Origin: an uncultured Saprospiraceae bacterium
Lineage (GTDB): Bacteria; Bacteroidota; Bacteroidia; Chitinophagales; Saprospiraceae
Reading direction: 5' to 3'
Length of the DNA: 64,000 nt
Assembly: GCA_964550795.1 (NCBI GenBank)
Contig: CAZKBH010000020.1
Location: forward strand, 8,111-72,110
Position 1 is the stretch's first letter, and every line of letters starts with the position of its first letter. Shown here piece after piece: positions 21,471 to 37,189 of the stretch. The position numbers and the translations under genes are program-made. Under the pieces are notes generated by a model. The model was given only the letters and a program-made list of their open reading frames with translations, searched no databases and was not told where the DNA came from.

Positions 21471-21694
21471 AATTTTCAGCCGATAAAAATTCAGCGGAAA
21501 TCAAAAGCTTGCATAGGATTTAACCCCAAAAAAAACGGGATTCTCGAAACGAGAGCAATCGCCTGAATGGTGGTTGCTTTTATTTGTGCGGGTGGAGTGT
21601 AAATTCGGTTGGATTTTTGTGGGCGGCTTGGCTGTTTGGGGGAAGGGGTTTTATCTTGCTGGCTTGTTATTCATCTTTTAAATATTTTTGGATT

Positions 21695-24600
21695 ATGCGT
21701 ACTGTAGTTTTAATTTTGGTGGGGTTTTTTATAATTTTAGGGAGTACTCTTGTGATGGGGCAGGTGGAAGGGGATACGCTGGGGCTGACGGGGACGATGG
21801 CGGACACGGTGGTGGCGAATCAGTTTTTGAATGAAGCGATTGAACTAAACAAGCAAGGGGGATATGAAGAGGCTTTTGTTAAGGCGGATAGTGCAGAGCA
21901 ATTATTTGTTTCTATAATAGGAACGGAGAGTAAAGAGGTGGCAGATGCGCTACACCAAAAAGGGACCTCCCTGTTTTTGAGCAGAAGGTATGAGGATGCA
22001 ATAGCTTCTTATTCGAAGTCTCTTTTAATTCGAACAAAAGTGACTGGAATATTAAACCCTGACGCAGCCGCATCCTATAATAATATTGGTATTTGCTACA
22101 GAAAAATTGGAAACTACAAAAGAGCGATAGAATCTCATAATGAGGCGCTAATCATCAGAACAAACACCCCCAAAATAGAAGAAAAGGATTTGTCTGCAAC
22201 TTATAATAATTTAGGGTTAACATATGTTGATATTTCAGAGTATGATACTGCTGTTGGTCTATTAAAAAAAGCTCTTGAAATCAATTTAAAAGTGTTTGGT
22301 TCAGAATCTAATGAGGTGTCAAACATATTCAATAATTTAGGATTGGCTTATAGTGGAATCGAGCAATATGATAATGCACTGGATTGTTTTAGTAAAGGAC
22401 TTAAAATACGCATAAAAATTTTAGGGCCAGAACACCAGAGCGTCGCCATGTCCTATAATAATATCGGAACCATATTCGGCGATAAAGGCGATTATAAATC
22501 AGCACTGTATTACCAGCAGAAATCTCTGGATATTCGCCTAAAAGTTTTAGGCCCCACACATTTAGATGTAGCAATGTCTTTTGGAAACATAGGGAATATA
22601 TACTATTCTATAAGAGAACTTGAAAAATCTCTTGAATATCAAAATAAGTCCTTAATGATTCTTTTGCAAAACCTTAATCCGGAACATCCTGAAATATCGA
22701 AGGTTCTAAACAATCTTGGTAATACATATGAAGAAATGGGCGATTACGAAAAATCATTATTCTGCCTCGAAAAGGCACTAAAAATAAAGCAAAATATTTT
22801 CGGGCCAGAGAGTCCAGATGTTGCTATAACGTTAGATAATTTAGGCGTTTTATATAGAGTAAAAGGTGAATCTGAGAAAGCTCTCCAATGTTTCGAGAAT
22901 GCTTTGAATATTCAGACAAAGGCCTTTGGACCAGACCACCCGGATAACGCTATGTCGATACATAATATGGCAAGCATTTATGATGATAGAAGAGAATATA
23001 GTAAGGCAATTGATTTGCATCTGAAGGCTCTAAATATTAATACTAGAACCAGAGGGAAAGACAACTCAGACATAGCATCTTCTTATCGAGATATTGGACT
23101 CGCTCTAAAAAAACAGGGTAAATATCTAGAAGCTATTAAATTTTATGAAATGACTCTATCCATCTGTAGGCCCGATCCAATTAACAATGAAAAAATATAC
23201 CCATTTGAACAATTTCTGAAGAGCATAATTGAATTAAGCGAGATATACAAAATACAGTTTATAGAGATAAAGAGCCCAAATCTACTTAACAAGAGTCTAA
23301 ATTATTGTGTAGATGGACTAAATGCCATTGTAAATGGTCGATATTTATTTGCCAGTGAAACATCAAAATCCTTTCACCTCTCCAAAAACTACCCCATCTA
23401 CGAACAAGCCATCTCTGTCTCCCTCCTAAAAGCCGAAGTAGACCATAACGACACCCTCCGCCAAAACACCTTCAGCTACGCCGAAAAAAGCAAAGCCTCC
23501 CTGCTCCAAGCCCAGATCAAAGCCGCCGACGCCATCAACTTTTCCGGCATCCCAGATTCCCTGCTCCAAAAGGAATACAAGCTCCGCGTCGACATCACCT
23601 GGCACGAAAAACAACGCCAATCCCTACTCGACCAAGGCCTCTCCGAAACCGATACCAACACCCTCCGCATCTCCAGCATCATTTTTGACCTAAAACGAAA
23701 CTACGAAACCCTCAAACAACGCTTCGAAACCGAGTATCCCGAATATTACCGCCTAAAATACGACCTCTCCACTGTCTCGCTCCAATACGTGCAAGACACC
23801 CTGCTCGAATCCCCAAACCAGGCCCTGCTCGAATACTTCGTCGGCGACAGCAGCATCTTCCTCTTTGTCGTCCGGCCGGATACCATGATCGTCGAGGAGG
23901 TCAAGCGCGATTTCCCGCTCGAAGACTGGATCCAAGGGCTGCGCCACGGGTTATACGGTTACTATACCGCTGAAAAATTGATTCAAACAGATTCCCTCAA
24001 GGCCGATGCACGAAGCAAATACCTGGAATTCGCCCCCAAACTCTACGAAAAACTCGTCGCCCCGGTAGCACAATACCTGCCCGAAAAAGTCATCCTGGTA
24101 CCCGATGGCCCGCTGGGATATGTGCCCTTCGATGCCTTGCTCACAGGCGCACCCGAGGACCTGAACAATTTCAAATCCTACCCCTATCTCCTTCAAAAAC
24201 ACCAGTTTAGCTATACTTATTCCGCCACGCTGCTGCGCGAAATGCGGGACAAAAAACACCGCCAGGAACCGGAAAAAGACTTCATTGCCTTTGCCCCTTT
24301 CTACAACGGCGATACCACACTGCTGGCCAGTATGTATGCCTACGACGAGCTGATGCGCAAGGACCTCCAGCCGCTCGCTTATTCCGGACCAGAAGTAGCA
24401 GCCGCGTCTAAACTCATGCGCGGTGAAACCATAGCTGGCGCTGCCGCCACGGAGGAAAGATTCATCAGCATGGCCAGTGATTACCGCATCATTCACCTCG
24501 CCACCCACGGCCGTGCCGACAATCGTGTGGGCGATTACGCTTTCCTCGCTTTCACCGAAATAAAGGACAGTATCGAAAACGAGCTGCTCTATGTCAAAGA

Positions 24601-24937
24601 CTTATACAACCTCTCCCTCAACGCCGACCTCGTGGTGCTCTCCGCCTGCGAAACCGGCATCGGCAAATTGCAGCGTGGAGAGGGCATTATCTCCCTCGCC
24701 CGGGCATTCGCCTACGCGGGCGCCAAGAGCATCGTGACCAGTTTGTGGAGCGTGAATGATAAAAGCACCTCTGAGTTGATGCGCTTTTTCTACCGGGAAT
24801 TGAAACGTGGAAAAGACAAAGACGAAGCCCTGCGTTTGGCGCGACTGCGCTTCTTGAAGGAGTCGTCGGTGCGGAATAGTCACCCGTTTTTCTGGGCGGC
24901 TTTTGTGCCGATAGGGGATATGCGGCCTGTAAAATAA
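21695..24937 (+). CDS. TPR-repeat CHAT-domain protein, paralogue 2
   Basis: Preferred start is ATG 21695 ('MRTVVLILVGFFIILGSTLVMGQ'). KLC-type TPR units 'YNNLG..Y...G.Y..A'. CHAT motifs 'IIHLATHGRADN' and 'LVVLSACETGIGK'. Confidence 0.85.
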   Translation: MRTVVLILVGFFIILGSTLVMGQVEGDTLGLTGTMADTVVANQFLNEAIELNKQGGYEEAFVKADSAEQLFVSIIGTESKEVADALHQKGTSLFLSRRYEDAIASYSKSLLIRTKVTGILNPDAAASYNNIGICYRKIGNYKRAIESHNEALIIRTNTPKIEEKDLSATYNNLGLTYVDISEYDTAVGLLKKALEINLKVFGSESNEVSNIFNNLGLAYSGIEQYDNALDCFSKGLKIRIKILGPEHQSVAMSYNNIGTIFGDKGDYKSALYYQQKSLDIRLKVLGPTHLDVAMSFGNIGNIYYSIRELEKSLEYQNKSLMILLQNLNPEHPEISKVLNNLGNTYEEMGDYEKSLFCLEKALKIKQNIFGPESPDVAITLDNLGVLYRVKGESEKALQCFENALNIQTKAFGPDHPDNAMSIHNMASIYDDRREYSKAIDLHLKALNINTRTRGKDNSDIASSYRDIGLALKKQGKYLEAIKFYEMTLSICRPDPINNEKIYPFEQFLKSIIELSEIYKIQFIEIKSPNLLNKSLNYCVDGLNAIVNGRYLFASETSKSFHLSKNYPIYEQAISVSLLKAEVDHNDTLRQNTFSYAEKSKASLLQAQIKAADAINFSGIPDSLLQKEYKLRVDITWHEKQRQSLLDQGLSETDTNTLRISSIIFDLKRNYETLKQRFETEYPEYYRLKYDLSTVSLQYVQDTLLESPNQALLEYFVGDSSIFLFVVRPDTMIVEEVKRDFPLEDWIQGLRHGLYGYYTAEKLIQTDSLKADARSKYLEFAPKLYEKLVAPVAQYLPEKVILVPDGPLGYVPFDALLTGAPEDLNNFKSYPYLLQKHQFSYTYSATLLREMRDKKHRQEPEKDFIAFAPFYNGDTTLLASMYAYDELMRKDLQPLAYSGPEVAAASKLMRGETIAGAAATEERFISMASDYRIIHLATHGRADNRVGDYAFLAFTEIKDSIENELLYVKDLYNLSLNADLVVLSACETGIGKLQRGEGIISLARAFAYAGAKSIVTSLWSVNDKSTSELMRFFYRELKRGKDKDEALRLARLRFLKESSVRNSHPFFWAAFVPIGDMRPVK

Positions 24938-25067: not shown

Positions 25068-26702
25068 ATGACAACCGTATCGTCCAACACTCCTTTTATC
25101 AAAAAAGCTCGCCTTCTTTCCATTTTGGGGGCAGTATGTTTGGTTTTGAGTCTGCTTTCCTGTAAAAAAGACCCTATTTCTGAAGAAAATAACCCTTCCG
25201 GGCCTGGCACCGAAAACACGATGACAACCGGCTGGCTGGGCAATGAAAACAATGCTACCATTCCAAATGATCCCTTGTTTTTCAGTGGTGGCACAGCGTC
25301 GTACATTGACCTTTCGCCTTTTATGCCATTGGTTAGGGATCAGGGCCAAACCGGCACCTGTGTAGCCTGGGCTTGTGGTTATTATCAACGAACCGCGCTG
25401 CGCGCCATTGACAAAAATTACTCGCCCAGCCAGATCAATAGCACCAGCAGACAGTATAGTCCCAAAGATCTTTTTTGGGCGCTCCCTACCAAGGGCGATA
25501 ATTGCGATGGCGCCTTATTTGAGCATGCGCTGAACACCCTGCAACAAAGGGGCGTGGCCACAATGCAAACGGTCCCTTATCAAAATCTGGGTGATTGCAG
25601 CCAACAACCATTGGTATCCTGGACGGATGAGGCCGCTGCTGCTAAAATCAGTTATTTCCGTGATTTGCCCGTGACGGTGAGCGCCATGAAAGCTAAATTG
25701 TCTGAAAAACGTCCGCTTGTTTTTGGTGCCATGGTCACAACGGGTTTTCAGGCATGGAGAGGCAGCGGTATCATGCAGAAAAATGATTTGTACGGCGCCG
25801 GACTTGGGGGACACGCGATGACCATTGTGGGGTATGACGATGCCAAAGGGGCCTTCCGAATTGTCAATTCCTGGGGCGCTGACTGGGGGGATGAAGGGTA
25901 TGCCTGGATTGATTATGATCTTATGACCGATCCTCAGTTTAACAAATGTGTGTTCTCGGCTTATCTGGATCAGGACAACGAACCAGTTAATCCGCCTCCT
26001 TCCGGCAATACAGTAGATGTGGCGGTAAATAAACTGAGCGATGTAGATGACCCCGATTATACCAACCCGCTTAGGCGCATCATCCGTTACAATGTAAAAA
26101 ATAACGGCAGTAAAATCATTAAGTCCACCAAAGACTGGGATATTGCCTATTTGTACGTAAATGCCTACGATGTAACGGATTATCAGGTTATTGTACACCG
26201 CTATATCACAGATGATTATAGCGGCTTGGAAGGTGAACAAGGCCCCAATCCCAATGGAATTGGTCTCTCTTCCAACCGCTGGTACAATGCGTCTCTGGAA
26301 TCTGGTGAGACCTTGGCTGAGGCTATGTTTGATGCCAGCAGTACCAGCGTAATTAAAGCCTCCTTTACAATGCCAAACATCACAGGATACTACTATATGG
26401 TAATGATCGCGGATCCATTTGAAAAACTCGAGGATGCCAATTTGGCCAACAATACCTGGTTTCTGGTGGGTGCTGATGGCGGACCGATCTATTTCTCCAA
26501 TGGCGTGGGACAAGGATTTACTTCTGGCGAAGCAGAGGAGCGCAGTGCTGATTCCAACCCACATACCCCTGTAAATAAGCAACATCCGAACGCCTATCGT
26601 CCGAAGGAGATCCGTAAGTTTTTACAGCAGGAGTACCGCGCTGGTAAAATTCAAAAAGGACCCAATCAAGATACCGCTGCTGACCAGGTGAGTGGACAGT
26701 AA
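25068..26702 (+). CDS. C1 (papain-like) cysteine peptidase lipoprotein with C-terminal extension
   Basis: Lipobox 'LVLSLLSC'; catalytic contexts 'DQGQTGTCVAWACGYY' (Cys), 'GGHAMTIVGYDD' (His), 'RIVNSWGADWGDEGYAWI' (Asn/Trp). Confidence 0.8.
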   Translation: MTTVSSNTPFIKKARLLSILGAVCLVLSLLSCKKDPISEENNPSGPGTENTMTTGWLGNENNATIPNDPLFFSGGTASYIDLSPFMPLVRDQGQTGTCVAWACGYYQRTALRAIDKNYSPSQINSTSRQYSPKDLFWALPTKGDNCDGALFEHALNTLQQRGVATMQTVPYQNLGDCSQQPLVSWTDEAAAAKISYFRDLPVTVSAMKAKLSEKRPLVFGAMVTTGFQAWRGSGIMQKNDLYGAGLGGHAMTIVGYDDAKGAFRIVNSWGADWGDEGYAWIDYDLMTDPQFNKCVFSAYLDQDNEPVNPPPSGNTVDVAVNKLSDVDDPDYTNPLRRIIRYNVKNNGSKIIKSTKDWDIAYLYVNAYDVTDYQVIVHRYITDDYSGLEGEQGPNPNGIGLSSNRWYNASLESGETLAEAMFDASSTSVIKASFTMPNITGYYYMVMIADPFEKLEDANLANNTWFLVGADGGPIYFSNGVGQGFTSGEAEERSADSNPHTPVNKQHPNAYRPKEIRKFLQQEYRAGKIQKGPNQDTAADQVSGQ

Positions 26703-26808: not shown

Positions 26809-29800
26809 ATGCGAAACTTCCTTACTGCCGTTTTAATTAGTATTCTGACACTGCTACAGAATTATTCTGTCGGTCAAAATTCCGTCAACATGTCTCTGGC
26901 CGATTCAAGCTCGGTACAATTGGCCTTGCGATTTACGGACACACTGCTTCTTGGGGGCGATCATTCCAATGCCATAACATTGGCTCAACGTATCCTGGAT
27001 CATTGTCAAACCAACGCGGATACCACCGGACGAAACTATAAGGCAGGATTGGAAAAGATGGGGCTTGGTCACTATTATTTGGGGAATTACCCCTTAGCAG
27101 TCCAATTGTACCGGCATGCTTTAAGCTTATACAGCATAACAGAAAGGGAGGCGAATGCTGCTGCTTATGCTGCCACTCAATATCGGGTAGGCTTGGCGTA
27201 CCACTATCTTGGCCAAAATGATTCCGCTTTAGTCTGGCATATGGCGGCTTTGCACGGGCGCGAAGCAATTCAACCCATTGATTCTAATAGCCTTGCAAGT
27301 AGCTACAATGGTATTGGAATGGCGTTCGACGCAACGGACCAACCTGATCAAGCATTAGAGTGGTATGGAAAAGCCACGAAAACCTGGAAGTCGGTCAAGG
27401 GTTACTGGAATAGAAATACCGCTAATGGATACAATAATATTGGCATTACATACCATACCATAGGCCGCTACGAAGAGGCTTTGAAATACAAGTTAGAAGC
27501 ATTACGCATCCGCCAGAAGATCTTGGGGCCTGACGAATATGATACTGGCGCTTCGTGGTTAAATCTTGGGGCAACTTATCATGCAATCGGTCAGCTTGAT
27601 AAAAGTGCAAATGCTTTAGCCGAAGCGTATCGAATCTGGTCTCGGATTTTGCCTCCCGAGCATCCAAATCTCGCTTTATTAATGGATAATACAGGTATCA
27701 CATTGATGGATATGGGGGACTTTACAAACGCGGAAAAATGGTTAAAAGACGCCTTGAAATCGAGGCTGGATAATTATGGATATGATTCACCGGAAACCTG
27801 CAAACCCCTCACAAATTTAGGAGTGCTTGCCGGTAAAACGGCCGACTATTCTGCTGCCATTGACTATCAATTGAAAGCGACCTATCTATTCCAAAAATCA
27901 GCGGGAAATGAGTACGAGTTGATGGTGGCTTATAGCAACATCGGAGTCTTTTATTCTGATTTAGAGGAACATCAAAATGCTTTACTTTGGTTAGAAAAGG
28001 CCTTGGAATTGAGCAATAAAATCGAATCCGTCCGCAAAGATATGATTACAGACATTTACTACAACATGGGAATAGCTTTTCAAGGTTTACAACTTTTTGA
28101 CAAAGCGCTCGAATATAAACAAAGAGCTCATAATGAAGCATTAATCGCACTGGGGGATACCAATACACATTACATCAATTACACTGAAGGTCTTGGCCGT
28201 TACTATCGGGACACCAAAGATTACGATAAAGCATCAAACTATTTTGAAAAAGCACTCCAACTCCGTGCCAAACAGGCTGGATTAATGAGTATGAACTATG
28301 CAATGGTGATGCTTGAAATTGCTCAGGTTAAACTATTGGCGGACGAAATTGAACATATTTTACCGTTGTTACAACATGTAGAATATATTGTCCACTACCA
28401 TAATCCAAATGGAGCCTCCAGTGATTTGCGTACCTGGATGAGGATCAAGTATTTATACGCCCAATATTTTCAATCTCGATATGAGTTGGACAAGCGTCTG
28501 GAAGATTATGAACAGGCTGCTGTGCTATATAATGGCATGCGCGATACCTTTTTGCTCCACTTATCAGACATGAATGGTGTTGAGTCCTGGAGATACTGGA
28601 CAAACTTTATCTACCCAGCTTTTGGTGATGCTATCAAGCTTTATACAGAGCAATACCTGCACAACCACCAAAAAGAAAGTGTTGCTCAAGCATGGTTGTT
28701 TTCGGAATCTGCAAAATCTCTACTTCTCTTAAAAGCAATAAACGATGAAAAGGTCGTTAATTTTAACGGCATCCCTGATTCCATAATTACTCAAGAACGC
28801 CTGTATCGCGTACAAATCACTTTTTTAGAAAAATTAAGACAGGAGATGATTGCCTCTGGAAAAATTGAGCAGGACAGTCTGGTATTGTCCGTGTCAAGTC
28901 AAATTACAGATTATCGGCAAAAAGTAATCCAAGTGCGAGATCAACTCAACCAACATGCGTCGCAATATGTCAGCTTGCGTTACAACCTCAATCAAATCCC
29001 TCTGCTTCGGGTTAGCGAAACCTTGGTGGGGAAAAATCAGGCCCTCCTCGAATACTTCGTCGGCGACAGCAGCATTTTCCTATTCGTAGTCCGGCCAGAT
29101 ACCATGATCGTCCAAGAAGTCAAGCGTGACTTCCCACTCGAAGAATGGATTGAAGGGCTGCGTTACGGAATATACGGTCACTACGCTGCCGACAAAGCGA
29201 TCCAAACAGATTCGCTTAAAGCCGACGCCAAGCGCCATTACCTCGAATTTGCCCCTAAACTATACCAAAAACTCGTCGCCCCGGTGGCACAACACCTACC
29301 CGAAAAAGTCATTCTGGTACCCGATGGGCCACTGGGTTATGTACCCTTTGATGCCTTGCTTGAAAGTCTCCCTCAATACGAAGACGATTTTAAAAGCTAT
29401 CCCTATTTGCTCAAAAAATATCAGTTCAGTTATACCTATTCTGCCACCCTTCTGCGGGAAATGAACAACAAAAAGCACCGCCAAGCACCGCCAAAGCCTT
29501 TCCTTGGCTTCGCACCTTTCTTTACAGGCGATCAGCTCGCTTTTGAGCAAGAATATGGCGACGTATTGCGAAAAGGATTTGCCCCTTTGCCATACACCAG
29601 GGAAGAAGTTGGCCTAGCACGCAAAAAAATGGGCGGCGATGTTGTTGTTGGCCAAAGTGCCACCGAAGAACAATTCTTAGAAATTGCCAGCCAGTATAGC
29701 ATTATCCACTTGGCTACACATGGCGTAGCCGACAATCGCGTGGGTGATTACGCTTATCTCGTTTTTGGCGATCATCCAGACAGCTTTGGGTATGAGTTGC

Positions 29801-30150
29801 TTTATATTAAAGACTTGTACAACCTCTCCCTCAACGCTGACCTCGTGGTGCTTTCTGCTTGTGAGACCGGAATCGGCAAACTTCAGCGCGGTGAAGGGAT
29901 CATATCTCTAGCACGCGCATTCGCCTATGCGGGGGCTAAGAGCATGGTCACCTCGCTTTGGAGCGTCAGCAATAAAAGCACTTCGGAACTTATGGCCTTG
30001 TTTTATGATGAATTAGCCCTAGGCAAAGAAAAAGATGCCGCCCTGCGGGAGGCAAGGCTGCGCTATATTAAAAATGCCTCAGTTAAGAATAGTCACCCGT
30101 TTTTCTGGGCGGCCTTTGTGCCGATAGGAGATATGCGGCCGGTACGATAG
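26809..30150 (+). CDS. TPR-repeat CHAT-domain protein, paralogue 3
   Basis: N-terminus 'MRNFLTAVLISILTLLQNYSVGQ'; TPR units; 'IIHLATHGVADN', 'LVVLSACETGIGK', 'HPFFWAAFVPIGD'. Confidence 0.85.
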   Translation: MRNFLTAVLISILTLLQNYSVGQNSVNMSLADSSSVQLALRFTDTLLLGGDHSNAITLAQRILDHCQTNADTTGRNYKAGLEKMGLGHYYLGNYPLAVQLYRHALSLYSITEREANAAAYAATQYRVGLAYHYLGQNDSALVWHMAALHGREAIQPIDSNSLASSYNGIGMAFDATDQPDQALEWYGKATKTWKSVKGYWNRNTANGYNNIGITYHTIGRYEEALKYKLEALRIRQKILGPDEYDTGASWLNLGATYHAIGQLDKSANALAEAYRIWSRILPPEHPNLALLMDNTGITLMDMGDFTNAEKWLKDALKSRLDNYGYDSPETCKPLTNLGVLAGKTADYSAAIDYQLKATYLFQKSAGNEYELMVAYSNIGVFYSDLEEHQNALLWLEKALELSNKIESVRKDMITDIYYNMGIAFQGLQLFDKALEYKQRAHNEALIALGDTNTHYINYTEGLGRYYRDTKDYDKASNYFEKALQLRAKQAGLMSMNYAMVMLEIAQVKLLADEIEHILPLLQHVEYIVHYHNPNGASSDLRTWMRIKYLYAQYFQSRYELDKRLEDYEQAAVLYNGMRDTFLLHLSDMNGVESWRYWTNFIYPAFGDAIKLYTEQYLHNHQKESVAQAWLFSESAKSLLLLKAINDEKVVNFNGIPDSIITQERLYRVQITFLEKLRQEMIASGKIEQDSLVLSVSSQITDYRQKVIQVRDQLNQHASQYVSLRYNLNQIPLLRVSETLVGKNQALLEYFVGDSSIFLFVVRPDTMIVQEVKRDFPLEEWIEGLRYGIYGHYAADKAIQTDSLKADAKRHYLEFAPKLYQKLVAPVAQHLPEKVILVPDGPLGYVPFDALLESLPQYEDDFKSYPYLLKKYQFSYTYSATLLREMNNKKHRQAPPKPFLGFAPFFTGDQLAFEQEYGDVLRKGFAPLPYTREEVGLARKKMGGDVVVGQSATEEQFLEIASQYSIIHLATHGVADNRVGDYAYLVFGDHPDSFGYELLYIKDLYNLSLNADLVVLSACETGIGKLQRGEGIISLARAFAYAGAKSMVTSLWSVSNKSTSELMALFYDELALGKEKDAALREARLRYIKNASVKNSHPFFWAAFVPIGDMRPVR

Positions 30151-30333
30151 CCCGCATTGAACCGATGAATTATTGAAACGCCTGCTGTGCTTGATGCATG
30201 GTGGGCGTTTTAATTTGTTGGTTATCAATGGTTTTGAAAAATTTATTATTGGTTTTTTTGAAACAACCTTACTAGGTCAAAGATTGCGGCAATAAGTGGT
30301 AGAATCTTTTCACTCACACTTAAAATTGAAGAA

Positions 30334-30603
30334 ATGGAACCAATTACAATCACCATCGCTGGAATTAAATTTATCGGCATTGCTGCAGTAAAACTCAAAC
30401 TTTTGGTTTTTTACTGGAAAGTCAAAAGTCTAATTGCTGCTGCTGGAATTAGTGCGGAAACTTTATCTATCGCCGCAGTCGGCGCTATGTTAACTGCTGC
30501 GGTTGAGGGGAAATCTGCTGATAACATACTTAAAACCGGACTAAAAAACGGGTTGTCCGATAGCCTTTCAAGATTTATCACTTATGAAGTAATAAGAGTT
30601 TAA
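30334..30603 (+). CDS. Small hydrophobic/membrane protein (89 aa)
   Basis: Two Ala/Gly/Ile-rich hydrophobic stretches. No motif was recognised. Confidence 0.45.
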   Translation: MEPITITIAGIKFIGIAAVKLKLLVFYWKVKSLIAAAGISAETLSIAAVGAMLTAAVEGKSADNILKTGLKNGLSDSLSRFITYEVIRV

Positions 30604-30666: not shown

Positions 30667-31026
30667 ATGCGAACTAAATCAGAAGCGCGGCTTAAAGCCG
30701 AGAACATCGTATCAAATTGGGTTGCAGGCGCTGCCCTTACGGGTTGGATTCCTGGAAGCACTATCTTTTTGGCAGGGGCCAACATGGTCATGATTCGGAA
30801 AGTAGCGGATACATTCGGAGTTGGCTTTTTCGATGAGGCTGCTGTTAAAGCCCATTTGGGCGGAGTGGCTGGAGCTGCCTTTGGAGGGAGTGTTGCTGGA
30901 GAAGCCTTGGTGTTAATTCCTCTTGTAGGTCCAGTACTGAAGGCAGGTGCTCTGGCAGGAACAGCCAAGTTAATTGGTACTGCCGTCATTGAATACTTCC
31001 ATGACGAAAGCCCACTCCCGGATTAG
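30667..31026 (+). CDS. Small Gly/Ala-rich membrane protein, DUF697/YcjF-like pattern
   Basis: 'GWIPGSTIFLAGANMVMIRKVADTFGV' resembles the DUF697 core, followed by the glycine-zipper-like 'GGVAGAAFGGSVAGEALVLIPLVGPVLKAGALAG'. Confidence 0.45.
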   Translation: MRTKSEARLKAENIVSNWVAGAALTGWIPGSTIFLAGANMVMIRKVADTFGVGFFDEAAVKAHLGGVAGAAFGGSVAGEALVLIPLVGPVLKAGALAGTAKLIGTAVIEYFHDESPLPD

Positions 31027-31117: not shown

Positions 31118-31414
31118 ATGAGCAAGTTAGCAGATGATCTCGAACTCCACTACAATGAGGCGTACTATCGCCATGATCTTAAAGCTGGAATTAAATTAAT
31201 TGCTGAAATAGCTGGCGCTGTTTCATTAGGCAGCCTGTTATTATCCATTTTGTTTGTCTGGTTGCCTGGTATTGGTATTCCCATTACCGCAGCTGTGGCG
31301 GTAAAAGTTTTCAAAGCTGCCGCCGAAGGTTATACGAATCTGGATGCTGAAGATCGCAAAAAGGTTCGTGCTGTTGTGAGATGGACTCAAGGTGGTATCC
31401 GGTTATTGGATTAA
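31118..31414 (+). CDS. Small membrane protein (98 aa)
   Basis: Central hydrophobic hairpin 'AGAVSLGSLLLSILFVWLPGIGIPITAAVAV'. Confidence 0.45.
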   Translation: MSKLADDLELHYNEAYYRHDLKAGIKLIAEIAGAVSLGSLLLSILFVWLPGIGIPITAAVAVKVFKAAAEGYTNLDAEDRKKVRAVVRWTQGGIRLLD

Positions 31415-31438
31415 TTCATGTAAAAATTACGCAAATCA

Positions 31439-31737
31439 TGTTCACCATCACCATCCTCATTGACAATCAAAGTACTGCCGTCAATATTCACCCGAATCAT
31501 ACGGCTCGGCAAATCCTGGACTACTTGCAGCAAAACCGTCTGATTTCGCGGTTTCAAGCCAACGTTCATCTCTTTTTTAACGGAGGCTTATTGCCTCTCA
31601 ACCAGCCTGTATCGCACTTCGGCATAGGGCCGAATGCAGTACTGAATGTTGTTTCAAACAATGGTCCCGGCTTTGGCGGTGGCGGCAAAGAAACCCTTTT
31701 AGTTGCCTTGCTAAAGGCATTCGCTAAACTGAAATAG
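31439..31737 (+). CDS. Ubiquitin-like (beta-grasp) small protein with Gly-rich linker and short C-terminal amphipathic helix
   Basis: Starting at ATG 31439, 'FTITILIDNQSTAVNIHPNHTARQILDYL...VHLFFNGGLLPLNQPVSHFGIGPNAVLNVV' follows the ubiquitin beta1-beta2-alpha1...'[13 protein letters not shown].I...STLHLV' pattern. It is followed by 'GPGFGGGG' and 'KETLLVALLKAFAKLK'. Confidence 0.45.
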
Positions 31738-31739
31738 CC

Positions 31740-32348
31740 ATGAACGCATTAATTGAATTCTTTCAACCAGCTTGGAACGGCTGGGGACAATCGGTCGTTT
31801 TTCTAGGCGGTGCCGTGGTCGTCTGGCTGCTGGGAAGGGCACAATCCATTGGGGAAATCCGTAAGCTCCAGGCAGAATTGGTTTCGTTGCGCGTCAACCA
31901 GTTTGAGAAGATTATCACCTTGGACGAGAAGCTACGTAGCGTGACAGAACGGGTATACGAACAATTGTACGCACTGCTCCATGCCACTCAAAACGCGGAT
32001 GCAGAAGGAGCAAAAACTGCCCGGGAAGCGACCCAAAAAATCTTTTTGCTGGAGTATATCGGGGCTTATTTTCACTACACCAGTGTTGGTCGCTGGGTAT
32101 TCCCGGAAGTCCGGTACGAATTGGTGGATGATGAGATCATACCCTTTCTAAAAACTTCGGCAATGCTGCTCGAAGCGCTCAACCAAGCTACGGTACTTTC
32201 ATTGACCCAGCAGCAAGTCTTAGTAATGAGCGACATAGATTTCAACTTCGCGCTCCGTTTTGCCAGAAAACACACGCGGTTTTGGGAGTTTGAACGTCGG
32301 AAAAGTTTAGTCGAGCTTGAAAAAAGACTGCTGAAACAGGCAGCATGA
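31740..32348 (+). CDS. Hypothetical N-terminally anchored helical protein (202 aa)
   Basis: TM-like 'GQSVVFLGGAVVVWLLG'. The start is 3 nt after the Ubl stop. No motif was recognised. Confidence 0.5.
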   Translation: MNALIEFFQPAWNGWGQSVVFLGGAVVVWLLGRAQSIGEIRKLQAELVSLRVNQFEKIITLDEKLRSVTERVYEQLYALLHATQNADAEGAKTAREATQKIFLLEYIGAYFHYTSVGRWVFPEVRYELVDDEIIPFLKTSAMLLEALNQATVLSLTQQQVLVMSDIDFNFALRFARKHTRFWEFERRKSLVELEKRLLKQAA

Positions 32349-32486: not shown

Positions 32487-35400
32487 ATGCGTGGTTTTTT
32501 TGTTTTTGTTTTAGGGGTGTTTTTTGTATTTCTTGGTAAGCCTTCCTTTGGGCAGAGCATGGGAGATACTTTGGGGTTGACGGGGACGGTGGCGGATACG
32601 GTGGTGGCGAATCGGTTGTTTGAAGAGATGAAAGGGTTGATAAAGGAGCGGAAATGGGAAGAGGCGGAAGGGAAAGGAGAACAAGCAAAAGTTGTATATA
32701 CGAGGCTATTTGGGGAAGAAAGCAGGCAGGTGGCTGATGTTTGGCATCAGAGGGGATTCATTTGTTATGGCCAGGTAGACTACAATATGGCATCACATAG
32801 TTGGGAAAAATCCTTAAACATTCGATTGAAAATATTGGGAGAAGAACATTTTGACGTGGCTAAGTCATGCAACAACCTCGGCATTACCTACGAATCAAAG
32901 GGGGAGTATGATAAAGCAACTGAATATCATCAAAAATCCTTAAATATCGGATTGAAAATATTTGGAGAAGAACACCAGTATGTGGCCACTTCTTACAACA
33001 ACCTTGGCGCTGCCTACCAATCAAAGGGAGAGTATGATAAATCATTAGAATATCAACAAAAAGGATTAAATATAAAATTGAAAATGTTGGGAGAAGAACA
33101 CCCGGAGGTGGCCACGTCATATAACAATCTTGGCAATAGTTACGAATCAAAGGGGGAATATGATAAAGCATTAGAACATTATCAAAAGGCCTTAATTATC
33201 TTATTGAAAATATTTGGAGAAGAGGATGCTGACGTGGCTAAGATATATAACAACCTTGGCAGTGCCTACGATTTAAAGAGAGAGTATGATAAAGCATTAG
33301 AATATCATCAAAAATCCATAAATATCAAATTGAAAATATTTGGAGAAGAACACCCAGAGGTGGCCACGTCATACAACAATCTTGGCATTACTTACCAATT
33401 AAAGGGAGAGTACGATAAAGCATTAGAACATCATCAAAAGGCCTTAAATATTCTATTGAAAATATTTGGGGAAGAGCACCCAGATGTGGCTGATGCATAT
33501 CTCAATCTTGGCGGCACCTACCAATCAAAGGGAGATGATAGAGCATTTGAATACAAACATAAAGCCTTAAATATTTTATTGAAAATATTTGGAGAAGAGC
33601 ACAGTTCTGTAGCTCTGCTATATAATAATCTTGGCATTACCTACATATCAAAGAGGGAGTATGATAAAGCAATAGAATATTATCAAAAATCTTTAAATAT
33701 CCGGTTGAAAATATTTGGCGAAGAGCACCCGGATTTGGGTCAATCATATAATAATCTTGGCGCAGCCTACAAATCAAAAGGGGAATATGATAAAGCAGTT
33801 AGTTTTTATAAAAAATCTATCCATGCTTGCGGTTATATTGAATATGATTTTTCGAAAGTTAATTCAGTGGAAAATTTAGTTGAGGGACTATACAACATTG
33901 GGCGGATGCTACATAGTAATTATACACTAACCAATGTTCCACAATTTATGAATCAAACATTTGACTATTCAAGCCAAACTATCTCAGCAGTCAATTACCA
34001 ACAATCAACCTTCACAGAAGAGTCCTCCAAGTCCCTCCACCTCTCCAAAAACTACCCCATCTACGAACAAGCCATCTCCATCTCCCTCCTAAAAGCCGAA
34101 GTAGATAAAAACGACACCCTCCGACACAACACCTTCACCTACGCCGAAAAAAGCAAAGCCTCACTCCTCCAGGCTCAGATCAAAGCCTCCGACGCCATCA
34201 ATTTTTCCGGCATCCCCGATACCCTCCTTCAAAAAGAACACGATCTCCGAATAGACATCACCTGGCGCGAAAAACAACGCCAAGCCCTCCTTGACAAAGG
34301 TCTCTCCGAAACCGATACCAACACCCTCCGCATTTCCAGCATCATTTTCGACCTTAAACGCGACTACGAAACCCTCAAAAAACGCTTCGAAACCGATTAC
34401 CCAGAATATTACCGCCTAAAATACGATCTCAGCACCGTCTCCCTCCAATACGTCCAGAACACCCTGCTCCAACCCAAAAACCAGGCCCTGCTCGAATACT
34501 TCGTCGGCGACAGCAGCATCTTCCTGTTTGTGGTCCGGCCGGATACCATGATCGTCCAGGAAGTCAAGCGCGATTTCCCGCGCGAAGATTGGGTCGAAGG
34601 ACTGCGCCAAGGAATATACGGTTACTACGCCGCCGACAAAGCGTTGCAAACGGATTCACTAAAAGCCGATGCTAGAAGTAAATACCTCGAATGCGCCCCA
34701 AAACTTTACCAAAAACTCGTCGCCCCGGTAGCGCAATACCTGCCCGAAAAGATTATCCTGGTGCCTGATGGCCCGCTGGGATATGTTCCCTTCGATGCCT
34801 TGCTCACAAGTGCACCCGAGGACCTGAACAATTTTAAATCCTACCCCTATCTTCTTCACAAACATCAGTTTAGCTATACCTACTCCGCGACGCTGCTCCG
34901 CGAAATGCGAGACAAAAAACACCGACAAGAACCGAAAAATGACTTTCTAGCCTTCGCACCTTTTTACAATGGTGATACCACGTTACTGGCCAGTATGTAT
35001 GCCTACGACGAGTTAATGCGAAAGGACCTACAGCCGCTTACTTATTCTGGCCCGGAAGTAGCCGCTGCGGCCAAGCTTATGCGCGGTGAAGCCATAATAG
35101 GTACTGCCGCGACGGAAGAAAGATTCACCAGCATGGCCAGTGATTACCGAATCATTCACCTCGCCACCCACGGCCGCGCTGACAACCGCGTGGGCGATTA
35201 CGCCTTCCTCGCTTTTACCGAAATAAAGGACAGTATCGAAAATGAGCTGCTCTATGTCAAGGACTTATACAACCTCTCCCTCAATGCCGACCTCGTGGTA
35301 CTCTCCGCCTGCGAAACCGGCATCGGCAAATTGCAACGTGGAGAGGGCATCATCTCCCTCGCCCGGGCATTCGCATACGCGGGCGCAAAGAGCATCGTGA

Positions 35401-35600
35401 CCAGTCTGTGGAGCGTGACCGACAAAAGCACCTCGGAACTCATGCGTTTGTTTTACCGGGAATTGAAGCGTGGAAAAGACAAGGATGAAGCTTTGCGATT
35501 GGCTCGATTGCGCTTCTTGAAGGAGTCGTCGGTGCGAAATGGACACCCGTTTTTCTGGGCGGCCTTTGTGCCGATTGGGGATATGCGGCCTGTGAAGTAA
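32487..35600 (+). CDS. TPR-repeat CHAT-domain protein, paralogue 4
   Basis: Preferred start is ATG 32487 ('MRGFFVFVLGVFFVFLGKPSFGQ'). Eight very regular 42-aa TPR units. 'IIHLATHGRADN', 'LVVLSACETGIGK'. Confidence 0.85.
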   Translation: MRGFFVFVLGVFFVFLGKPSFGQSMGDTLGLTGTVADTVVANRLFEEMKGLIKERKWEEAEGKGEQAKVVYTRLFGEESRQVADVWHQRGFICYGQVDYNMASHSWEKSLNIRLKILGEEHFDVAKSCNNLGITYESKGEYDKATEYHQKSLNIGLKIFGEEHQYVATSYNNLGAAYQSKGEYDKSLEYQQKGLNIKLKMLGEEHPEVATSYNNLGNSYESKGEYDKALEHYQKALIILLKIFGEEDADVAKIYNNLGSAYDLKREYDKALEYHQKSINIKLKIFGEEHPEVATSYNNLGITYQLKGEYDKALEHHQKALNILLKIFGEEHPDVADAYLNLGGTYQSKGDDRAFEYKHKALNILLKIFGEEHSSVALLYNNLGITYISKREYDKAIEYYQKSLNIRLKIFGEEHPDLGQSYNNLGAAYKSKGEYDKAVSFYKKSIHACGYIEYDFSKVNSVENLVEGLYNIGRMLHSNYTLTNVPQFMNQTFDYSSQTISAVNYQQSTFTEESSKSLHLSKNYPIYEQAISISLLKAEVDKNDTLRHNTFTYAEKSKASLLQAQIKASDAINFSGIPDTLLQKEHDLRIDITWREKQRQALLDKGLSETDTNTLRISSIIFDLKRDYETLKKRFETDYPEYYRLKYDLSTVSLQYVQNTLLQPKNQALLEYFVGDSSIFLFVVRPDTMIVQEVKRDFPREDWVEGLRQGIYGYYAADKALQTDSLKADARSKYLECAPKLYQKLVAPVAQYLPEKIILVPDGPLGYVPFDALLTSAPEDLNNFKSYPYLLHKHQFSYTYSATLLREMRDKKHRQEPKNDFLAFAPFYNGDTTLLASMYAYDELMRKDLQPLTYSGPEVAAAAKLMRGEAIIGTAATEERFTSMASDYRIIHLATHGRADNRVGDYAFLAFTEIKDSIENELLYVKDLYNLSLNADLVVLSACETGIGKLQRGEGIISLARAFAYAGAKSIVTSLWSVTDKSTSELMRLFYRELKRGKDKDEALRLARLRFLKESSVRNGHPFFWAAFVPIGDMRPVK
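32806..33813 (+). repeat. Eight tandem 126-bp TPR-coding units in CHAT-4
   Basis: The unit 'K.LNI.LKIFGEEHP.VA.SYNNLG..Y.SKGEYDKALEY.Q' recurs every 42 aa. Confidence 0.8.
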
Positions 35601-35624: not shown

Positions 35625-36584
35625 TTATTTCTTCTGCAGCGCCAATTCCAAAGTTTTGGCACGGTCAAAATAAGGGTGCTTTGGATTGGCCGTGATTTCT
35701 TTCAATAGGGCATCCAGGCGAGTACGAGAATCAGGGAGTTGTCTGGTCATGCAAAAAACCTCGCACCAAAGCGCATCTAGCTTTCGATCAGAATCAAAGT
35801 CCCGAAATTTGTGGAAGTCTGCTTCAGCTTTTGCGTACTGACCTAAGTGGTAGTAAGTATATCCGCGCAGATAAAGAGATTCTTGTTCCCGGTTTTTGTC
35901 CGGCTTTTCAAGCAATTTCAACGCATCCCGGTATTCTAGATCCACATAAAACCTGACGGCTTGATCATAAAGCAACTGCGACTCTTCTTTTTCTTCTCCC
36001 ATCAGCGTTTGGCTGAAATCTTCATCTATATAACTATTGTCCGCTATGGCAGCAAAGTCTTGGTCTATCTTTGGATTTTGAACCTTTTGATTTTGAACCT
36101 TTGGTTTTTCAACCTTCGGTGTCTGAACCGGAGGGGCTTTTTTTTCAGCTATAGGTGGGTTTTGACTAACTGGTGCCGTGGAAGTGGTATCTTTTTCTGC
36201 GGATGGAGATATGGGATTGGAATCCTTGACTTCTTCAGGTTTAAACCCGTTTAAGTTCTCGACTAGTACAAACAGACCCCCTGACAAAACAACCAAAATA
36301 GCAACAATTCGCCAATTACGATAGAGAAACGACCCCTTCCTGCCATTGGAGGGAGTATCTGTTTTTTTTTCAGCTTCCGCATCATTGCTCCAATCATCCA
36401 ATTGCGCCAACAGATGCTCGTTCCGCAGCATACGCAACACTTTAGATTCTGATCGAAGGGCTTCCACACGCCGTATCAAATCGGCATCCGATTGGAGTGC
36501 ATCCTCAAAGGCCACCCGGTCTGACACACTCATCCGATCATGGATGTAGTCGTCAATATCTTCAAATTCGTATAGCGGATTCAT
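35625..36584 (-). CDS. Anti-sigma-factor-like single-pass membrane protein with Pro/Lys-rich linker and TPR-like C-terminal domain
   Basis: 4-bp overlap with the upstream sigma gene. N-terminal helical region, TM 'WRIVAILVVLSGGLFVLV', 'PKVEKPKVQNQKVQNPK' linker, C-terminal 'YLRGYTYYHLGQYAKAEADF'. Confidence 0.6.
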   Translation of the reverse strand: MNPLYEFEDIDDYIHDRMSVSDRVAFEDALQSDADLIRRVEALRSESKVLRMLRNEHLLAQLDDWSNDAEAEKKTDTPSNGRKGSFLYRNWRIVAILVVLSGGLFVLVENLNGFKPEEVKDSNPISPSAEKDTTSTAPVSQNPPIAEKKAPPVQTPKVEKPKVQNQKVQNPKIDQDFAAIADNSYIDEDFSQTLMGEEKEESQLLYDQAVRFYVDLEYRDALKLLEKPDKNREQESLYLRGYTYYHLGQYAKAEADFHKFRDFDSDRKLDALWCEVFCMTRQLPDSRTRLDALLKEITANPKHPYFDRAKTLELALQKK

Positions 36585-37189
36585 ATTTCGCGTAGTTCTT
36601 CAAGCAATTCAGGGCGTTCAGACAAAATTGTGTTGAGCTTTTTTCTGCAATCACGAACAGCCATTTTGGCCGAATCATGGCTTTTATAGTCAAATTTTTC
36701 GGCAATCTCCCCCATGGAATAACCGTGACTATACCATTGGAGCAGTGTTCGACATTTCGCTCCGGTCGAAATCAGTAATTTGTCTAACAACTCCCTTTGA
36801 TGCTGTAGGTTAAATTCAAATTCGGGATTGGTCACAATGTCAACATTCCCATCATCCATTGCTCGATCATGCATTGCTACCCGCCGATGTTCCGAGCGCC
36901 GCTTTGTGTAATACATCTGCGTAGCTATTTTGACAATATAGGTGGAAATGGCGCTTCTTGTAGGGTCATACTTACCCTCCTCTACATGATTCAAAAAAGC
37001 CACCAATGCCTGGTTTAGCACATCCTTTGCATCGTTTTCGTCACCCCCCAAAATCCTTACCTGCTGCCTGACAGCCCCCTTAAGTTTGTCGTTAAGACAG
37101 AGGTGTCGCATAGCTGCATTGATTTGAAGGTTCACATTGCTTCGCAATGCCTCGAGAATAGATTGATCGTCTTTGAATGGATTGTTCAT
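36581..37189 (-). CDS. Sigma-70 family (ECF-like) RNA polymerase sigma factor
   Basis: About 200 aa. Region 2-like 'DVLNQALVAFLNHVEEGKYDP..SAISTYIVKIATQMYY' and region 4 HTH-like 'GYSMGEIAEKFDYKSHDSAKMAVRDCRKKL'. Confidence 0.7.
   Translation of the reverse strand: MNNPFKDDQSILEALRSNVNLQINAAMRHLCLNDKLKGAVRQQVRILGGDENDAKDVLNQALVAFLNHVEEGKYDPTRSAISTYIVKIATQMYYTKRRSEHRRVAMHDRAMDDGNVDIVTNPEFEFNLQHQRELLDKLLISTGAKCRTLLQWYSHGYSMGEIAEKFDYKSHDSAKMAVRDCRKKLNTILSERPELLEELREI

What the first reader, a model, noticed from the sequence alone, without database searches (positions are those of the whole stretch)
31439..31737. Ubiquitin-like beta-grasp protein with 'GPGFGGGG' tail followed by a 16-aa C-terminal helix
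The sequence 'FTITILIDNQSTAVNIHPNHTARQILDYL...VHLFFNGGLLPLNQPVSHFGIGPNAVLNVV' follows the ubiquitin fold pattern. The second half parallels '[28 protein letters not shown]'.

Where ubiquitin has its RGG terminus, this protein has a poly-Gly run and then an extra amphipathic peptide, 'KETLLVALLKAFAKLK'. In known prokaryotic Ubl systems, residues after the Gly-Gly are removed by a peptidase before conjugation. Here no E1 or JAB gene is visible. Instead the neighbours are caspase-like CHAT proteins and a papain-like peptidase, and both clans include enzymes that cleave after Gly-Gly or in similar contexts. This could be a protease-processed Ubl tag or a membrane-tethered Ubl.
Basis: inference. 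Interest (0 to 1): 0.7.

Follow-up and report, generated by a model that had tools for sequence, protein, structure and literature searches.

The report
Tailed ubiquitin-fold protein, sigma-controlled membrane operon
A real, conserved 99-residue ubiquitin-fold protein with a glycine linker and a conserved C-terminal amphipathic helix sits in a small membrane-protein operon of Saprospiraceae that carries the promoter motif of the neighbouring alternative sigma factor; it looks like a tethered adaptor subunit, not a conjugated ubiquitin-like tag.

Summary
The ORF (31438-31737, one base earlier than reported) encodes a 99-aa protein. Its AlphaFold model is a beta-grasp that superposes on ubiquitin (TM 0.82-0.89), and its sequence profile retrieves genuine ubiquitins.

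The GFGGGG-KETLL..LLKAF.KLK tail is conserved across all ~14 known relatives, all from Saprospiraceae metagenomes. It is under stronger purifying selection than the fold itself.

The "protease-processed tag" reading is not supported:
- No E1, E2 or JAB gene occurs in the window or in nine related loci.
- The neighbouring proteases are exported, while the Ubl has no signal peptide.
- The hydrolase family changes from locus to locus (S8, C1, astacin).

What is conserved is a terminator-bracketed operon: variable small membrane proteins, then the Ubl, then a translationally coupled 200-aa membrane-anchored helical protein. It is preceded by the motif ACCTTACC-N13-CGGCAATAAG. That motif also precedes the adjacent ECF sigma gene and the exported hydrolase genes.

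Best reading: a non-conjugated, membrane- or partner-tethered Ubl adaptor, working like YukD, in an ECF/TPR-CHAT envelope-signalling regulon. This mechanism is inferred, not shown. It is a new family and a new variant of a known kind, of moderate interest.

The parts
31438..31656 (+). Ubl gene, residues 1-73: ubiquitin-like beta-grasp domain, with no lysine in residues 1-83
   Evidence: AF2 model and Foldseek; profile hits to ubiquitins; Pfam Ub-clan hits; lysine count
31657..31686 (+). Ubl residues 74-83, NNGPGFGGGG: conserved flexible Gly-rich linker (F79 and G81 invariant, G78 nearly so)
   Evidence: pLDDT <50 at residues 75-83; conservation; pN 0.22
31687..31737 (+). Ubl residues 84-99, KETLLVALLKAFAKLK, plus the stop codon: conserved cationic amphipathic C-terminal helix
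   Evidence: Predicted helix 83-98; hydrophobic moment 0.37-0.55 in all but one member and charge +2/+3 across the family; pN 0.21 against 0.35 for the domain
31740..32348 (+). 202-aa partner: short N-out segment, one TM helix (about residues 17-33), a long stalk helix and an all-alpha cytoplasmic domain. Translationally coupled to the Ubl (2-nt gap here, 4-nt overlap in other loci).
   Evidence: Follows the Ubl in every locus whose contig extends past it. No fold or family match.
31118..31414 (+). 98-aa small membrane protein (hydrophobic hairpin, residues 24-65). Variable module; the same type occurs in L020.
30667..31026 (+). 119-aa Gly-rich protein that JGI names DUF697 family. Frequent but positionally variable in the cassette; its wider family stands alone in other phyla.
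   Evidence: no Pfam hit
30334..30603 (+). 89-aa small hydrophobic protein, first gene of the operon
30267..30295 (+). ECF-type promoter motif CCTTAC-N16-GCAATAA, 38 nt upstream of the first cassette gene
   Evidence: 5 matches in the window against 0.04 expected. Equivalent sites lie before the cassette in all related loci examined.
30172..30214 (+). Terminator-like hairpin separating the upstream TPR-CHAT gene from the cassette
   Evidence: a similar hairpin is present in L001
32431..32448 (+). Terminator-like hairpin after the 202-aa gene, closing the operon
36581..37189 (-). ECF sigma factor. Its own start codon lies 3 nt after a copy of the motif (37193-37221, minus strand), which suggests autoregulation.
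35625..36584 (-). Putative anti-sigma factor: cytoplasmic N-terminal region, one TM helix, periplasmic TPR-containing region
   Evidence: The weak anti-sigma match (E=0.037) and the topology read from the sequence make this an inference.
26809..30150 (+). TPR-CHAT protease with an N-terminal signal peptide (one of four paralogues)
32487..35600 (+). TPR-CHAT protease with a signal peptide (likely true start at 32487)
21584..24937 (+). TPR-CHAT paralogue with a signal peptide (internal Met start)
11685..14780 (+). TPR-CHAT paralogue
25068..26702 (+). Papain-family (C1) lipoprotein peptidase, preceded by the motif at 24999-25027
15028..19266 (+). S8 subtilase with CUB, BACON and T9SS sorting domains, preceded by the motif at 14953-14981
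19521..20063 (+). 180-aa exported protein preceded by the motif at 19409-19437

Best explanation
The gene encodes a cytoplasmic, non-conjugated ubiquitin-fold adaptor. It is one subunit of a small inner-membrane complex.

Proposed working: the beta-grasp domain (residues 1-73) is held at the membrane by a flexible Gly linker (74-83) and a conserved cationic amphipathic helix (84-99). That helix docks either on the juxtamembrane stalk helix of the co-translated 200-aa membrane protein or on the inner leaflet itself. The fold then serves as a protein-protein interaction surface, in the way YukD or the EccD Ubl domain does in type VII secretion.

Proposed regulation: the operon belongs to the regulon of the adjacent ECF sigma factor. 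Periplasmic TPR-CHAT proteases are proposed to sense a signal and act on the TPR-bearing anti-sigma factor. The released sigma would then switch on its own gene, exported hydrolases and this cassette.

Shown here: the fold, tail conservation, synteny, the shared promoter motif, and the absence of conjugation genes nearby. Inferred: the tethering mode, complex formation, the CHAT-to-anti-sigma step, and the output function of the complex.
For: - Fold.
- The tail and linker are conserved in all members and are more constrained than the domain: pN 0.21 and 0.22 against 0.35, at similar pS.
- Tail properties resemble membrane-targeting helices: hydrophobic moment 0.37-0.55 in all but one member, net charge +2/+3, and Lys or Arg at both ends.
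- No signal peptide or TM segment in the Ubl, while all cassette partners are hydrophobic or membrane proteins.
- The Ubl is followed by the 200-aa gene, with a 2-nt gap or 4-nt overlap, in every locus whose contig extends past it.
- A Ubl-less paralogue of the 200-aa protein diverges specifically in the stalk, residues 44-80 (0.33-0.47 match where Ubl-linked copies conserve 0.83-0.88), yet keeps the C-terminal domain.
- The promoter motif occurs 5 times in the window against 0.04 expected. There are 26 instances in 9 loci, always upstream of sigma, exported hydrolases, small secreted proteins or the first cassette gene.
- Terminator-like hairpins bracket the operon.
- No E1, E2 or JAB among the ORFs of at least 150 aa scanned across the window or in the called genes of related loci.
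- Precedents: YukD is a non-conjugated Ubl in a membrane export cluster (PMC1779556); DdvA is a periplasmic TPR-CHAT coupled to ECF sigma release (PMC11506125).
Against: - No direct evidence exists for membrane binding or for a Ubl/200-aa complex.
- The tail helix has low model confidence (pLDDT 51-64).
- Amphipathicity is only marginally above shuffles for individual sequences (p about 0.03-0.2).
- The very specific conservation of G-F-G..G-K-E would also suit a protease recognition site.
- The stalk argument rests on a single paralogue.
- All loci are from one family (Saprospiraceae), so part of the synteny may be inherited rather than selected.
- The complete genomes could not be searched for unlinked E1 or JAB genes.
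Confidence: 0.5

Rival explanations
1. Processed Ubl precursor. A cytoplasmic peptidase encoded elsewhere cuts within or after the GFGGGG run, exposing a C-terminal glycine. The 83-residue Ubl is then conjugated to proteins or lipid by unlinked E1-like machinery, in the manner of ubiquitin, Atg8, or the bacterial Bil and Bub systems.
For: - It is closer to ubiquitin proper than to ThiS or MoaD.
- The aromatic-Gly plus Gly run is invariant or nearly so (F79, G81, G78, G83) and lies in a disordered segment accessible to a protease.
- Eukaryotic ubiquitin precursors also carry functional C-terminal extensions. One hit, P0065, ends in a GG followed by a basic helix.
Against: - No E1, E2, JAB or other cytoplasmic peptidase in the window or in nine related loci.
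- The Gly run sits 4-7 residues beyond the position of ubiquitin's GG.
- The tail is more conserved than the domain.
- The neighbouring proteases are exported and vary in family.
- One member (P0027) reads LFEGTG, with no Gly-Gly pair.
Confidence: 0.15
2. Protease-released membrane-active peptide, or a gasdermin-like switch. The Ubl domain acts as a carrier or inhibitor. Cleavage at the Gly run frees the cationic amphipathic 16-mer, or alternatively frees the Ubl, to perturb the membrane as an effector of the CHAT/ECF pathway.
For: - The tail is cationic (+2/+3) and amphipathic, like lytic peptides.
- The cassette lies among caspase-like CHAT and other proteases.
- From my own knowledge: bacterial gasdermins are activated by neighbouring CHAT, caspase-like or subtilase proteases that remove a short C-terminal peptide.
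- The upstream small-membrane-protein genes are swapped between near-identical loci, a pattern seen in conflict systems.
Against: - The compartments do not match: exported proteases against a cytoplasmic Ubl.
- A 16-residue tail with moderate hydrophobic moment is weak for a pore-former.
- No gasdermin fold.
- No PADLOC defence-family hit for any cassette protein.
- No phage association.
Confidence: 0.08
3. Soluble beta-grasp adaptor with no membrane role. The tail helix folds back on the Ubl or mediates oligomerisation, and gene order with the membrane proteins merely reflects shared ancestry within one bacterial family.
For: - The family is confined to Saprospiraceae.
- No Ubl-membrane contact has been shown.
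- Low pLDDT leaves the position of the tail open.
Against: - The start-stop gap or overlap with the 200-aa gene is kept at 48% protein identity.
- The Ubl-200aa pair stays constant while upstream genes are exchanged.
- The operon is bounded by a shared promoter and terminators.
Confidence: 0.15

Closest known systems
Ubiquitin and eukaryote-type Ubl domains (Pfam PF00240 ubiquitin, PF11976 Rad60-SLD)
   Same: - Same beta-grasp topology and size.
- Best structural matches, at TM 0.82-0.89.
- Reciprocal profile similarity.
- The LxFxG..L....S.yGI....L.vV pattern in the second half.
   Different: - 18-19% identity, and below Pfam's curated cut-offs.
- No lysines in the fold.
- The Gly run is displaced 4-7 residues and followed by a conserved helix.
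- No E1, E2, E3 or DUB partners.
- Bacterial and restricted to Saprospiraceae.
YukD and the EccD N-terminal Ubl of type VII secretion
   Same: A bacterial ubiquitin-fold protein encoded with membrane proteins (and, in actinobacteria, a subtilisin). It is not conjugated and is thought to be a structural or assembly subunit (PMC1779556).
   Different: - No sequence match to the YukD family.
- No FtsK-like ATPase or WXG100 substrates nearby.
- This protein has the Gly linker and amphipathic tail, and its context is ECF/TPR-CHAT.
Atg8/LC3 and bacterial Bil/Bub Ubl precursors
   Same: A Ubl made with residues after an aromatic-Gly or Gly-Gly site, and a link to membranes for Atg8 (own knowledge).
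   Different: - No Atg4-, Atg7- or Atg3-like, E1, E2 or JAB genes nearby.
- No N-terminal helical extension.
- The tail here is long, conserved and helical rather than short and variable.
C-terminal membrane-targeting amphipathic helices of MinD and FtsA
   Same: A terminal helix of 11-16 residues that is cationic and amphipathic, placed after a flexible linker. Hydrophobic moment and charge are comparable (reference sequences recalled from memory).
   Different: - The cargo domain is unrelated.
- The tail sequence here is more strictly conserved (GKE[TS]LL..LL.[AS]F), which hints at a protein partner rather than lipid alone.
DdvA/DdvS (Myxococcus): TPR-CHAT anti-sigma factor with an ECF sigma
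   Same: Periplasmic TPR-CHAT module coupled to an ECF sigma/anti-sigma pair that controls an island (PMC11506125).
   Different: - Here TPR-CHAT and the anti-sigma factor are separate proteins.
- There are four TPR-CHAT paralogues.
- The regulon contains exported hydrolases and the Ubl cassette, not CBASS or CRISPR.

Membership tests
Ubiquitin-like beta-grasp superfamily (Pfam clan CL0072) | beta-beta-alpha-beta-beta-(3-10)-beta grasp topology in about 70-75 residues | tested here: met
   AF2 secondary structure; Foldseek TM 0.82-0.89 and rmsd 1.6-1.9 A to ubiquitin
Ubiquitin-like beta-grasp superfamily (Pfam clan CL0072) | Significant sequence-profile similarity to Ub-clan families | tested here: met
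   The family profile hits ubiquitins at E 1e-27 to 1e-4. 10 of 13 members hit Rad60-SLD (best 2.8e-5), below Pfam's curated cut-off. hhalign E=0.001.
Conjugated Ubl systems (ubiquitin, SAMP, Bil, Bub, CBASS-Cap2 type) | E1-like adenylating enzyme (ThiF/MoeB fold) encoded with the Ubl | tested here: not met
   None among the ORFs of at least 150 aa scanned across the 64-kb window or in related loci. Whole genomes were not searchable.
Conjugated Ubl systems (ubiquitin, SAMP, Bil, Bub, CBASS-Cap2 type) | JAB/DUB-type processing peptidase in the same compartment | tested here: not met
   The only peptidases nearby are exported CHAT, S8, C1 and astacin enzymes
Conjugated Ubl systems (ubiquitin, SAMP, Bil, Bub, CBASS-Cap2 type) | C-terminal Gly(-Gly), exposed or exposable, about 4-6 residues after strand beta-5 | tested here: inconclusive
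   A Gly run is present but internal, 7-10 residues after beta-5, and followed by a conserved 16-aa helix. Processing could not be tested.
ThiS/MoaD sulfur carriers | Match to ThiS/MoaD profiles, a terminal GG, and ThiF/ThiG/MoaE neighbours | tested here: not met
   No ThiS or MoaD hit at E<=1 or E<=0.1 for other family members. The GG is not terminal. No such neighbours.
YukD family (PF08817) | Sequence match to YukD and a type VII secretion neighbourhood | tested here: not met
   No YukD hit. No FtsK-like ATPase or WXG100 genes. The resemblance is functional only.
Atg8/LC3 family | Two N-terminal helices before the beta-grasp, with Atg4/Atg7/Atg3 partners | tested here: not met
   The model starts directly with strand beta-1. 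No such partners found.
Membrane-targeting amphipathic C-terminal helix (functional class, not a homology family) | Terminal cationic amphipathic helix after a flexible linker | tested here: met
Membrane-targeting amphipathic C-terminal helix (functional class, not a homology family) | Tail-dependent membrane binding | not testable with these tools
   Needs localisation or liposome assays
ECF sigma regulon member | The promoter motif found upstream of the sigma gene is also upstream of the operon | tested here: met
   Dependence of transcription on the sigma factor was not tested.

The most novel reading that the evidence does not exclude
The GFGGGG site is a genuine cleavage site. On activation of the ECF/TPR-CHAT pathway, a still unidentified protease cuts the precursor, giving one of two outcomes:
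- a ubiquitin-like protein with a free C-terminal glycine, conjugated by unlinked machinery to membrane proteins or lipid (a bacterial Atg8-like or ubiquitin-like membrane tag); or
- a released membrane-active peptide.

Either way this would be a protease-gated Ubl switch of a kind not described in bacteria.
Probability: 0.12. Interest if true: 0.8.

Novelty: new variant of a known kind. Interest (0 to 1): 0.45.

Why it matters
Bacterial ubiquitin-fold proteins are being rediscovered as parts of defence and signalling systems, and almost all attention goes to the conjugated ones.

This family is unannotated: no Pfam, NCBIfam, PADLOC or PHROG model matches it at a curated threshold. It is closer to ubiquitin itself than to ThiS or MoaD, and it shows a different solution. 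The fold is carried on a glycine tether with a conserved amphipathic helix, inside a membrane-protein operon that shares its promoter motif with an ECF sigma factor flanked by multiple periplasmic caspase-like TPR-CHAT proteins.

It offers two things:
- a compact, testable case of a tethered Ubl adaptor;
- a defined regulon (motif ACCTTACC-N13-CGGCAATAAG) for a TPR-CHAT/ECF envelope pathway in Bacteroidota, whose outputs include secreted proteases.

If the glycine site turned out to be cleaved, the case would become considerably more interesting.

Tried and rejected
- The 200-aa protein gave no informative result: Foldseek best E 0.065 with TM <0.4, PDB profile search E>0.3, and Pfam per-member scan with no consistent family. 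A faint ESCRT-III/CdvB resemblance (rank 24, E 0.78) was judged meaningless.
- PADLOC and PHROG scans of all cassette proteins found nothing.
- Viral-contig and metagenome scans found no viral relative and only a locus already known.
- Distant homologues of the 119-aa DUF697-like protein are solitary in unrelated contexts in other phyla, so they give no functional lead.
- I asked whether the N-terminal half of the Ubl co-varies with the type of upstream membrane gene. This was suggested by the recombination breakpoint, but similar N-halves occur with different upstream modules, so I dropped it.
- GlyGly-CTERM/rhombosortase and double-glycine leader (C39) analogies were considered and rejected. 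There is no signal peptide, the helix is too short and too polar to span a membrane, and the orientation is reversed.
- Literature searches for a Ubl linked to CHAT or to Saprospiraceae returned nothing relevant.

Full report
**1. The observation**

The ORF is real, but its ATG is at 31438, one base before the reported start. It runs 31438-31737 on the + strand and encodes 99 aa. The quoted strings are exact.

A search of 5.8 billion proteins found only nine relatives, at 48-97% identity. An exhaustive profile search added four more small full-length homologues. All genome-resolved copies are in Saprospiraceae MAGs. No viral relative was found.

Codon analysis of seven orthologues shows purifying selection: pN 0.21-0.35 against pS 0.64-0.79. 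This is an expressed-type coding gene, not a chance ORF.

**2. The fold**

- AlphaFold2 with the family alignment gives pLDDT 76.7. The model has strands 2-8, 11-17, 43-47 and 68-73, helix 23-32 and a short helix 58-61. This is the ubiquitin beta-grasp. It is followed by a disordered stretch at 75-83 and a helix at 83-98.
- All 50 Foldseek hits listed against the PDB are ubiquitin, ubiquitin-like proteins or engineered ubiquitin variants, including the Bacteroides fragilis ubiquitin homologue. E is about 4e-6 at best, TM 0.82-0.89 normalised on single-domain ubiquitin targets, and rmsd 1.6-1.9 A at 18-19% identity.
- The family profile retrieves genuine ubiquitin and polyubiquitin proteins from 1.8 billion representatives, at E 1e-27 to 1e-4.
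- Ten of 13 members hit Pfam Rad60-SLD and seven hit PF00240, all below Pfam's curated cut-offs.
- hhalign against human ubiquitin aligns residues 10-72 with Ub 10-70 at E 0.001.
- No ThiS, MoaD or YukD match appears.

The window protein has no lysine in residues 1-83.

**3. The tail**

Every member keeps G-F-G-x-G-[KR]-[ED]-[TS]-x-L-x-x-[LI]-L-x-[AS]-[FLI]-x-K-x-K.

- The linker and helix are more constrained than the fold: pN 0.22 and 0.21 against 0.35, at comparable pS.
- The two variable helix positions fall on the polar face. The hydrophobic positions and the terminal basic residues are kept.
- Hydrophobic moment is 0.37-0.55 in all but one member (P0026, 0.23), and net charge is +2 or +3. 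These values are in the range I computed for the MinD and FtsA membrane-targeting helices, whose sequences I recalled from memory.
- The Gly run lies 7-10 residues after strand beta-5, which is 4-7 residues beyond where ubiquitin's Gly-Gly would align.
- One member reads LFEGTG, with no Gly-Gly.

**4. Context**

In every related locus whose contig extends past the Ubl gene, it is followed by a roughly 200-aa gene, with a 2-nt gap or a 4-nt overlap.

That 200-aa protein has the following features:
- One N-terminal TM helix, with positive residues after it, so its bulk is cytoplasmic.
- A long stalk helix and an all-alpha domain.
- No detectable relative outside this cluster.

Upstream lie small hydrophobic proteins that differ between loci:
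- 70/71 aa plus 141/142 aa (most common)
- 119 aa plus 142 aa
- 119 aa (called DUF697 family by JGI) plus 98 aa, as in the window, where an 89-aa gene precedes them
- 82 aa (zinc ribbon plus TM) plus 137 aa
- 119 aa alone

Two loci that are 96% identical from Ubl codon ~47 onward are unrelated upstream of that point. A recombination breakpoint therefore sits inside the Ubl gene, and the 5' genes are exchangeable modules.

In L001 a second 119-aa/202-aa pair lacks a Ubl. That 202-aa paralogue has diverged specifically in stalk residues 44-80, which are highly conserved in Ubl-linked copies, while it keeps the C-terminal domain. I take this as a hint that the stalk is where the Ubl or its tail binds. 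It rests on a single case.

**5. Regulation**

Reading the intergenic regions revealed a shared motif. CCTTAC-N16-GCAAWAA occurs five times in the window against 0.04 expected. All five have identical spacing and all lie in the sense orientation just upstream of genes:
- the S8/T9SS protease (14953)
- a 180-aa exported protein (19409)
- the C1 lipoprotein peptidase (24999)
- the first gene of the Ubl cassette (30267)
- the ECF sigma factor gene itself (37221, minus strand)

Across nine loci there are 26 instances, with consensus ACCTTACC-N13-CGGCAATAAG. They always precede the sigma gene, exported hydrolases, small secreted proteins or the first cassette gene. L001 has a three-mismatch variant before its cassette.

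Terminator-like hairpins bracket the cassette at 30172-30214 and 32431-32448.

The TPR-CHAT genes lack the motif. Their products have signal peptides with a conserved xG|Q site and intact His and Cys motifs, read directly from the sequence.

The sigma gene is paired with a single-pass protein bearing periplasmic TPRs. I take this to be the anti-sigma factor, on a weak match and on its position.

A precedent for periplasmic TPR-CHAT control of ECF sigma release is DdvA/DdvS (PMC11506125).

**6. What it is not**

No E1, E2 or JAB gene occurs among the ORFs of at least 150 aa scanned across the 64-kb window or in the related loci.

The proteases next to the cassette are exported, and their family varies between loci: S8, C1, astacin. 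They look like outputs of the regulon, not Ubl-processing enzymes. The compartment mismatch argues against CHAT or C1 cleavage of this cytoplasmic protein.

No defence-system or phage family matches any cassette protein.

**7. Best explanation and rivals**

I favour a non-conjugated, tethered ubiquitin-fold adaptor (confidence about 0.5). The Gly linker and amphipathic helix would hold the beta-grasp at the membrane, on the stalk of the 200-aa partner and/or on the inner leaflet. There it would act as an interaction module of a small complex produced when the ECF sigma factor is released.

It works like YukD or EccD-Ubl (PMC1779556), but it is not a member of that family.

Rivals:

| Reading | Confidence |
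|---|---|
| Precursor processed at the Gly run and conjugated by unlinked enzymes | 0.15 |
| Protease-released membrane-active peptide, or gasdermin-like switch | 0.08 |
| Soluble adaptor whose synteny is merely inherited | 0.15 |

The remaining probability is reserved for something not yet imagined.

What the complex does (feedback on sigma signalling, support of export, or membrane remodelling) remains unknown. Only the anatomy, conservation and regulatory motif are shown.

**8. Novelty and score**

The ubiquitin fold and non-conjugated bacterial Ubl subunits are known. The following appear undescribed:
- this family itself
- its conserved Gly-tether and helix
- its obligate pairing with an orphan membrane protein
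- its place in a TPR-CHAT/ECF regulon

I found no matching model at a curated threshold and no relevant literature. I rate it a new variant of a known kind, with interest 0.45. The score is limited by the narrow taxonomic range and the lack of a demonstrated function.

Noticed in passing
window 14953-14981, 19409-19437, 24999-25027, 30267-30295 (+) and 37193-37221 (-); also L001, L003, L007, L018-L020, L022, L024: A conserved ECF-type promoter motif, ACCTTACC-N13-CGGCAATAAG, defines a regulon: the sigma gene itself (ATG only 3 nt downstream, so possibly a leaderless mRNA), T9SS or lipoprotein hydrolases, small secreted proteins, and the Ubl cassette.
   Followed up: yes
window 11685-14780, 21584-24937, 26809-30150, 32487-35600: Four paralogous TPR-CHAT proteins with signal peptides. 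The three read in full (21584-24937, 26809-30150, 32487-35600) have near-identical C-terminal halves, with long shared strings such as ALLEYFVGDSSIFLFVVRPDTMIV, but divergent TPR arrays. This suggests gene conversion of the protease part and diversification of the sensor part.
   Followed up: partly
L018 10001-10306 versus L020 1037-1342: A recombination breakpoint lies inside the Ubl gene. The two loci are about 96% identical at nucleotide level from codon ~47 onward, through the 199-aa gene, but unrelated upstream, where different small-membrane-protein genes sit.
   Followed up: partly
L001 10949-11948: A second 119-aa/202-aa gene pair with no Ubl between them. Its 202-aa paralogue has diverged only in the juxtamembrane stalk (residues 44-80).
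   Followed up: partly
window 31045-31085: A 17-bp near-perfect hairpin (TACCCGGTTGTCTATTC..GAATAGGCAACCGGGTA) lies between the 119-aa and 98-aa genes, with a T-run only about 13 nt later. It may be an internal attenuator or an RNA-stability element within the operon.
   Followed up: no
window 1-4318: The window starts with an SbcC/SMC-like ATPase fragment and a JetD gene (Wadjet anti-plasmid system, 1527-2654), followed by a KaiC-like double ATPase (2867-4318).
   Followed up: no
window 24955-24985 and about 38690-38800: Short tandem repeats. (GCGGATAAC)x3 lies just upstream of the C1 peptidase promoter. GATTGGTGGATTGGG-type repeats lie between the 219-aa gene and the HMG-CoA synthase gene.
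   Followed up: no
L001 933-2445; L019 2150-3744; L018 11112-12584: A conserved pair of motif-driven genes encodes a roughly 120-aa secreted protein (SAQNSAYWE...) and a 330-350-aa Gln-rich protein with a C-terminal TM segment. It accompanies the cassette in several loci but is absent from the window.
   Followed up: no
P0065: A polyubiquitin-like protein, probably eukaryotic, ends with GG followed by a basic amphipathic helix (EDTKGIQKLIKLFKKLRKKRNL). It aligned to the family profile through position 98. This is a convergent Ub plus basic-helix precursor architecture.
   Followed up: no
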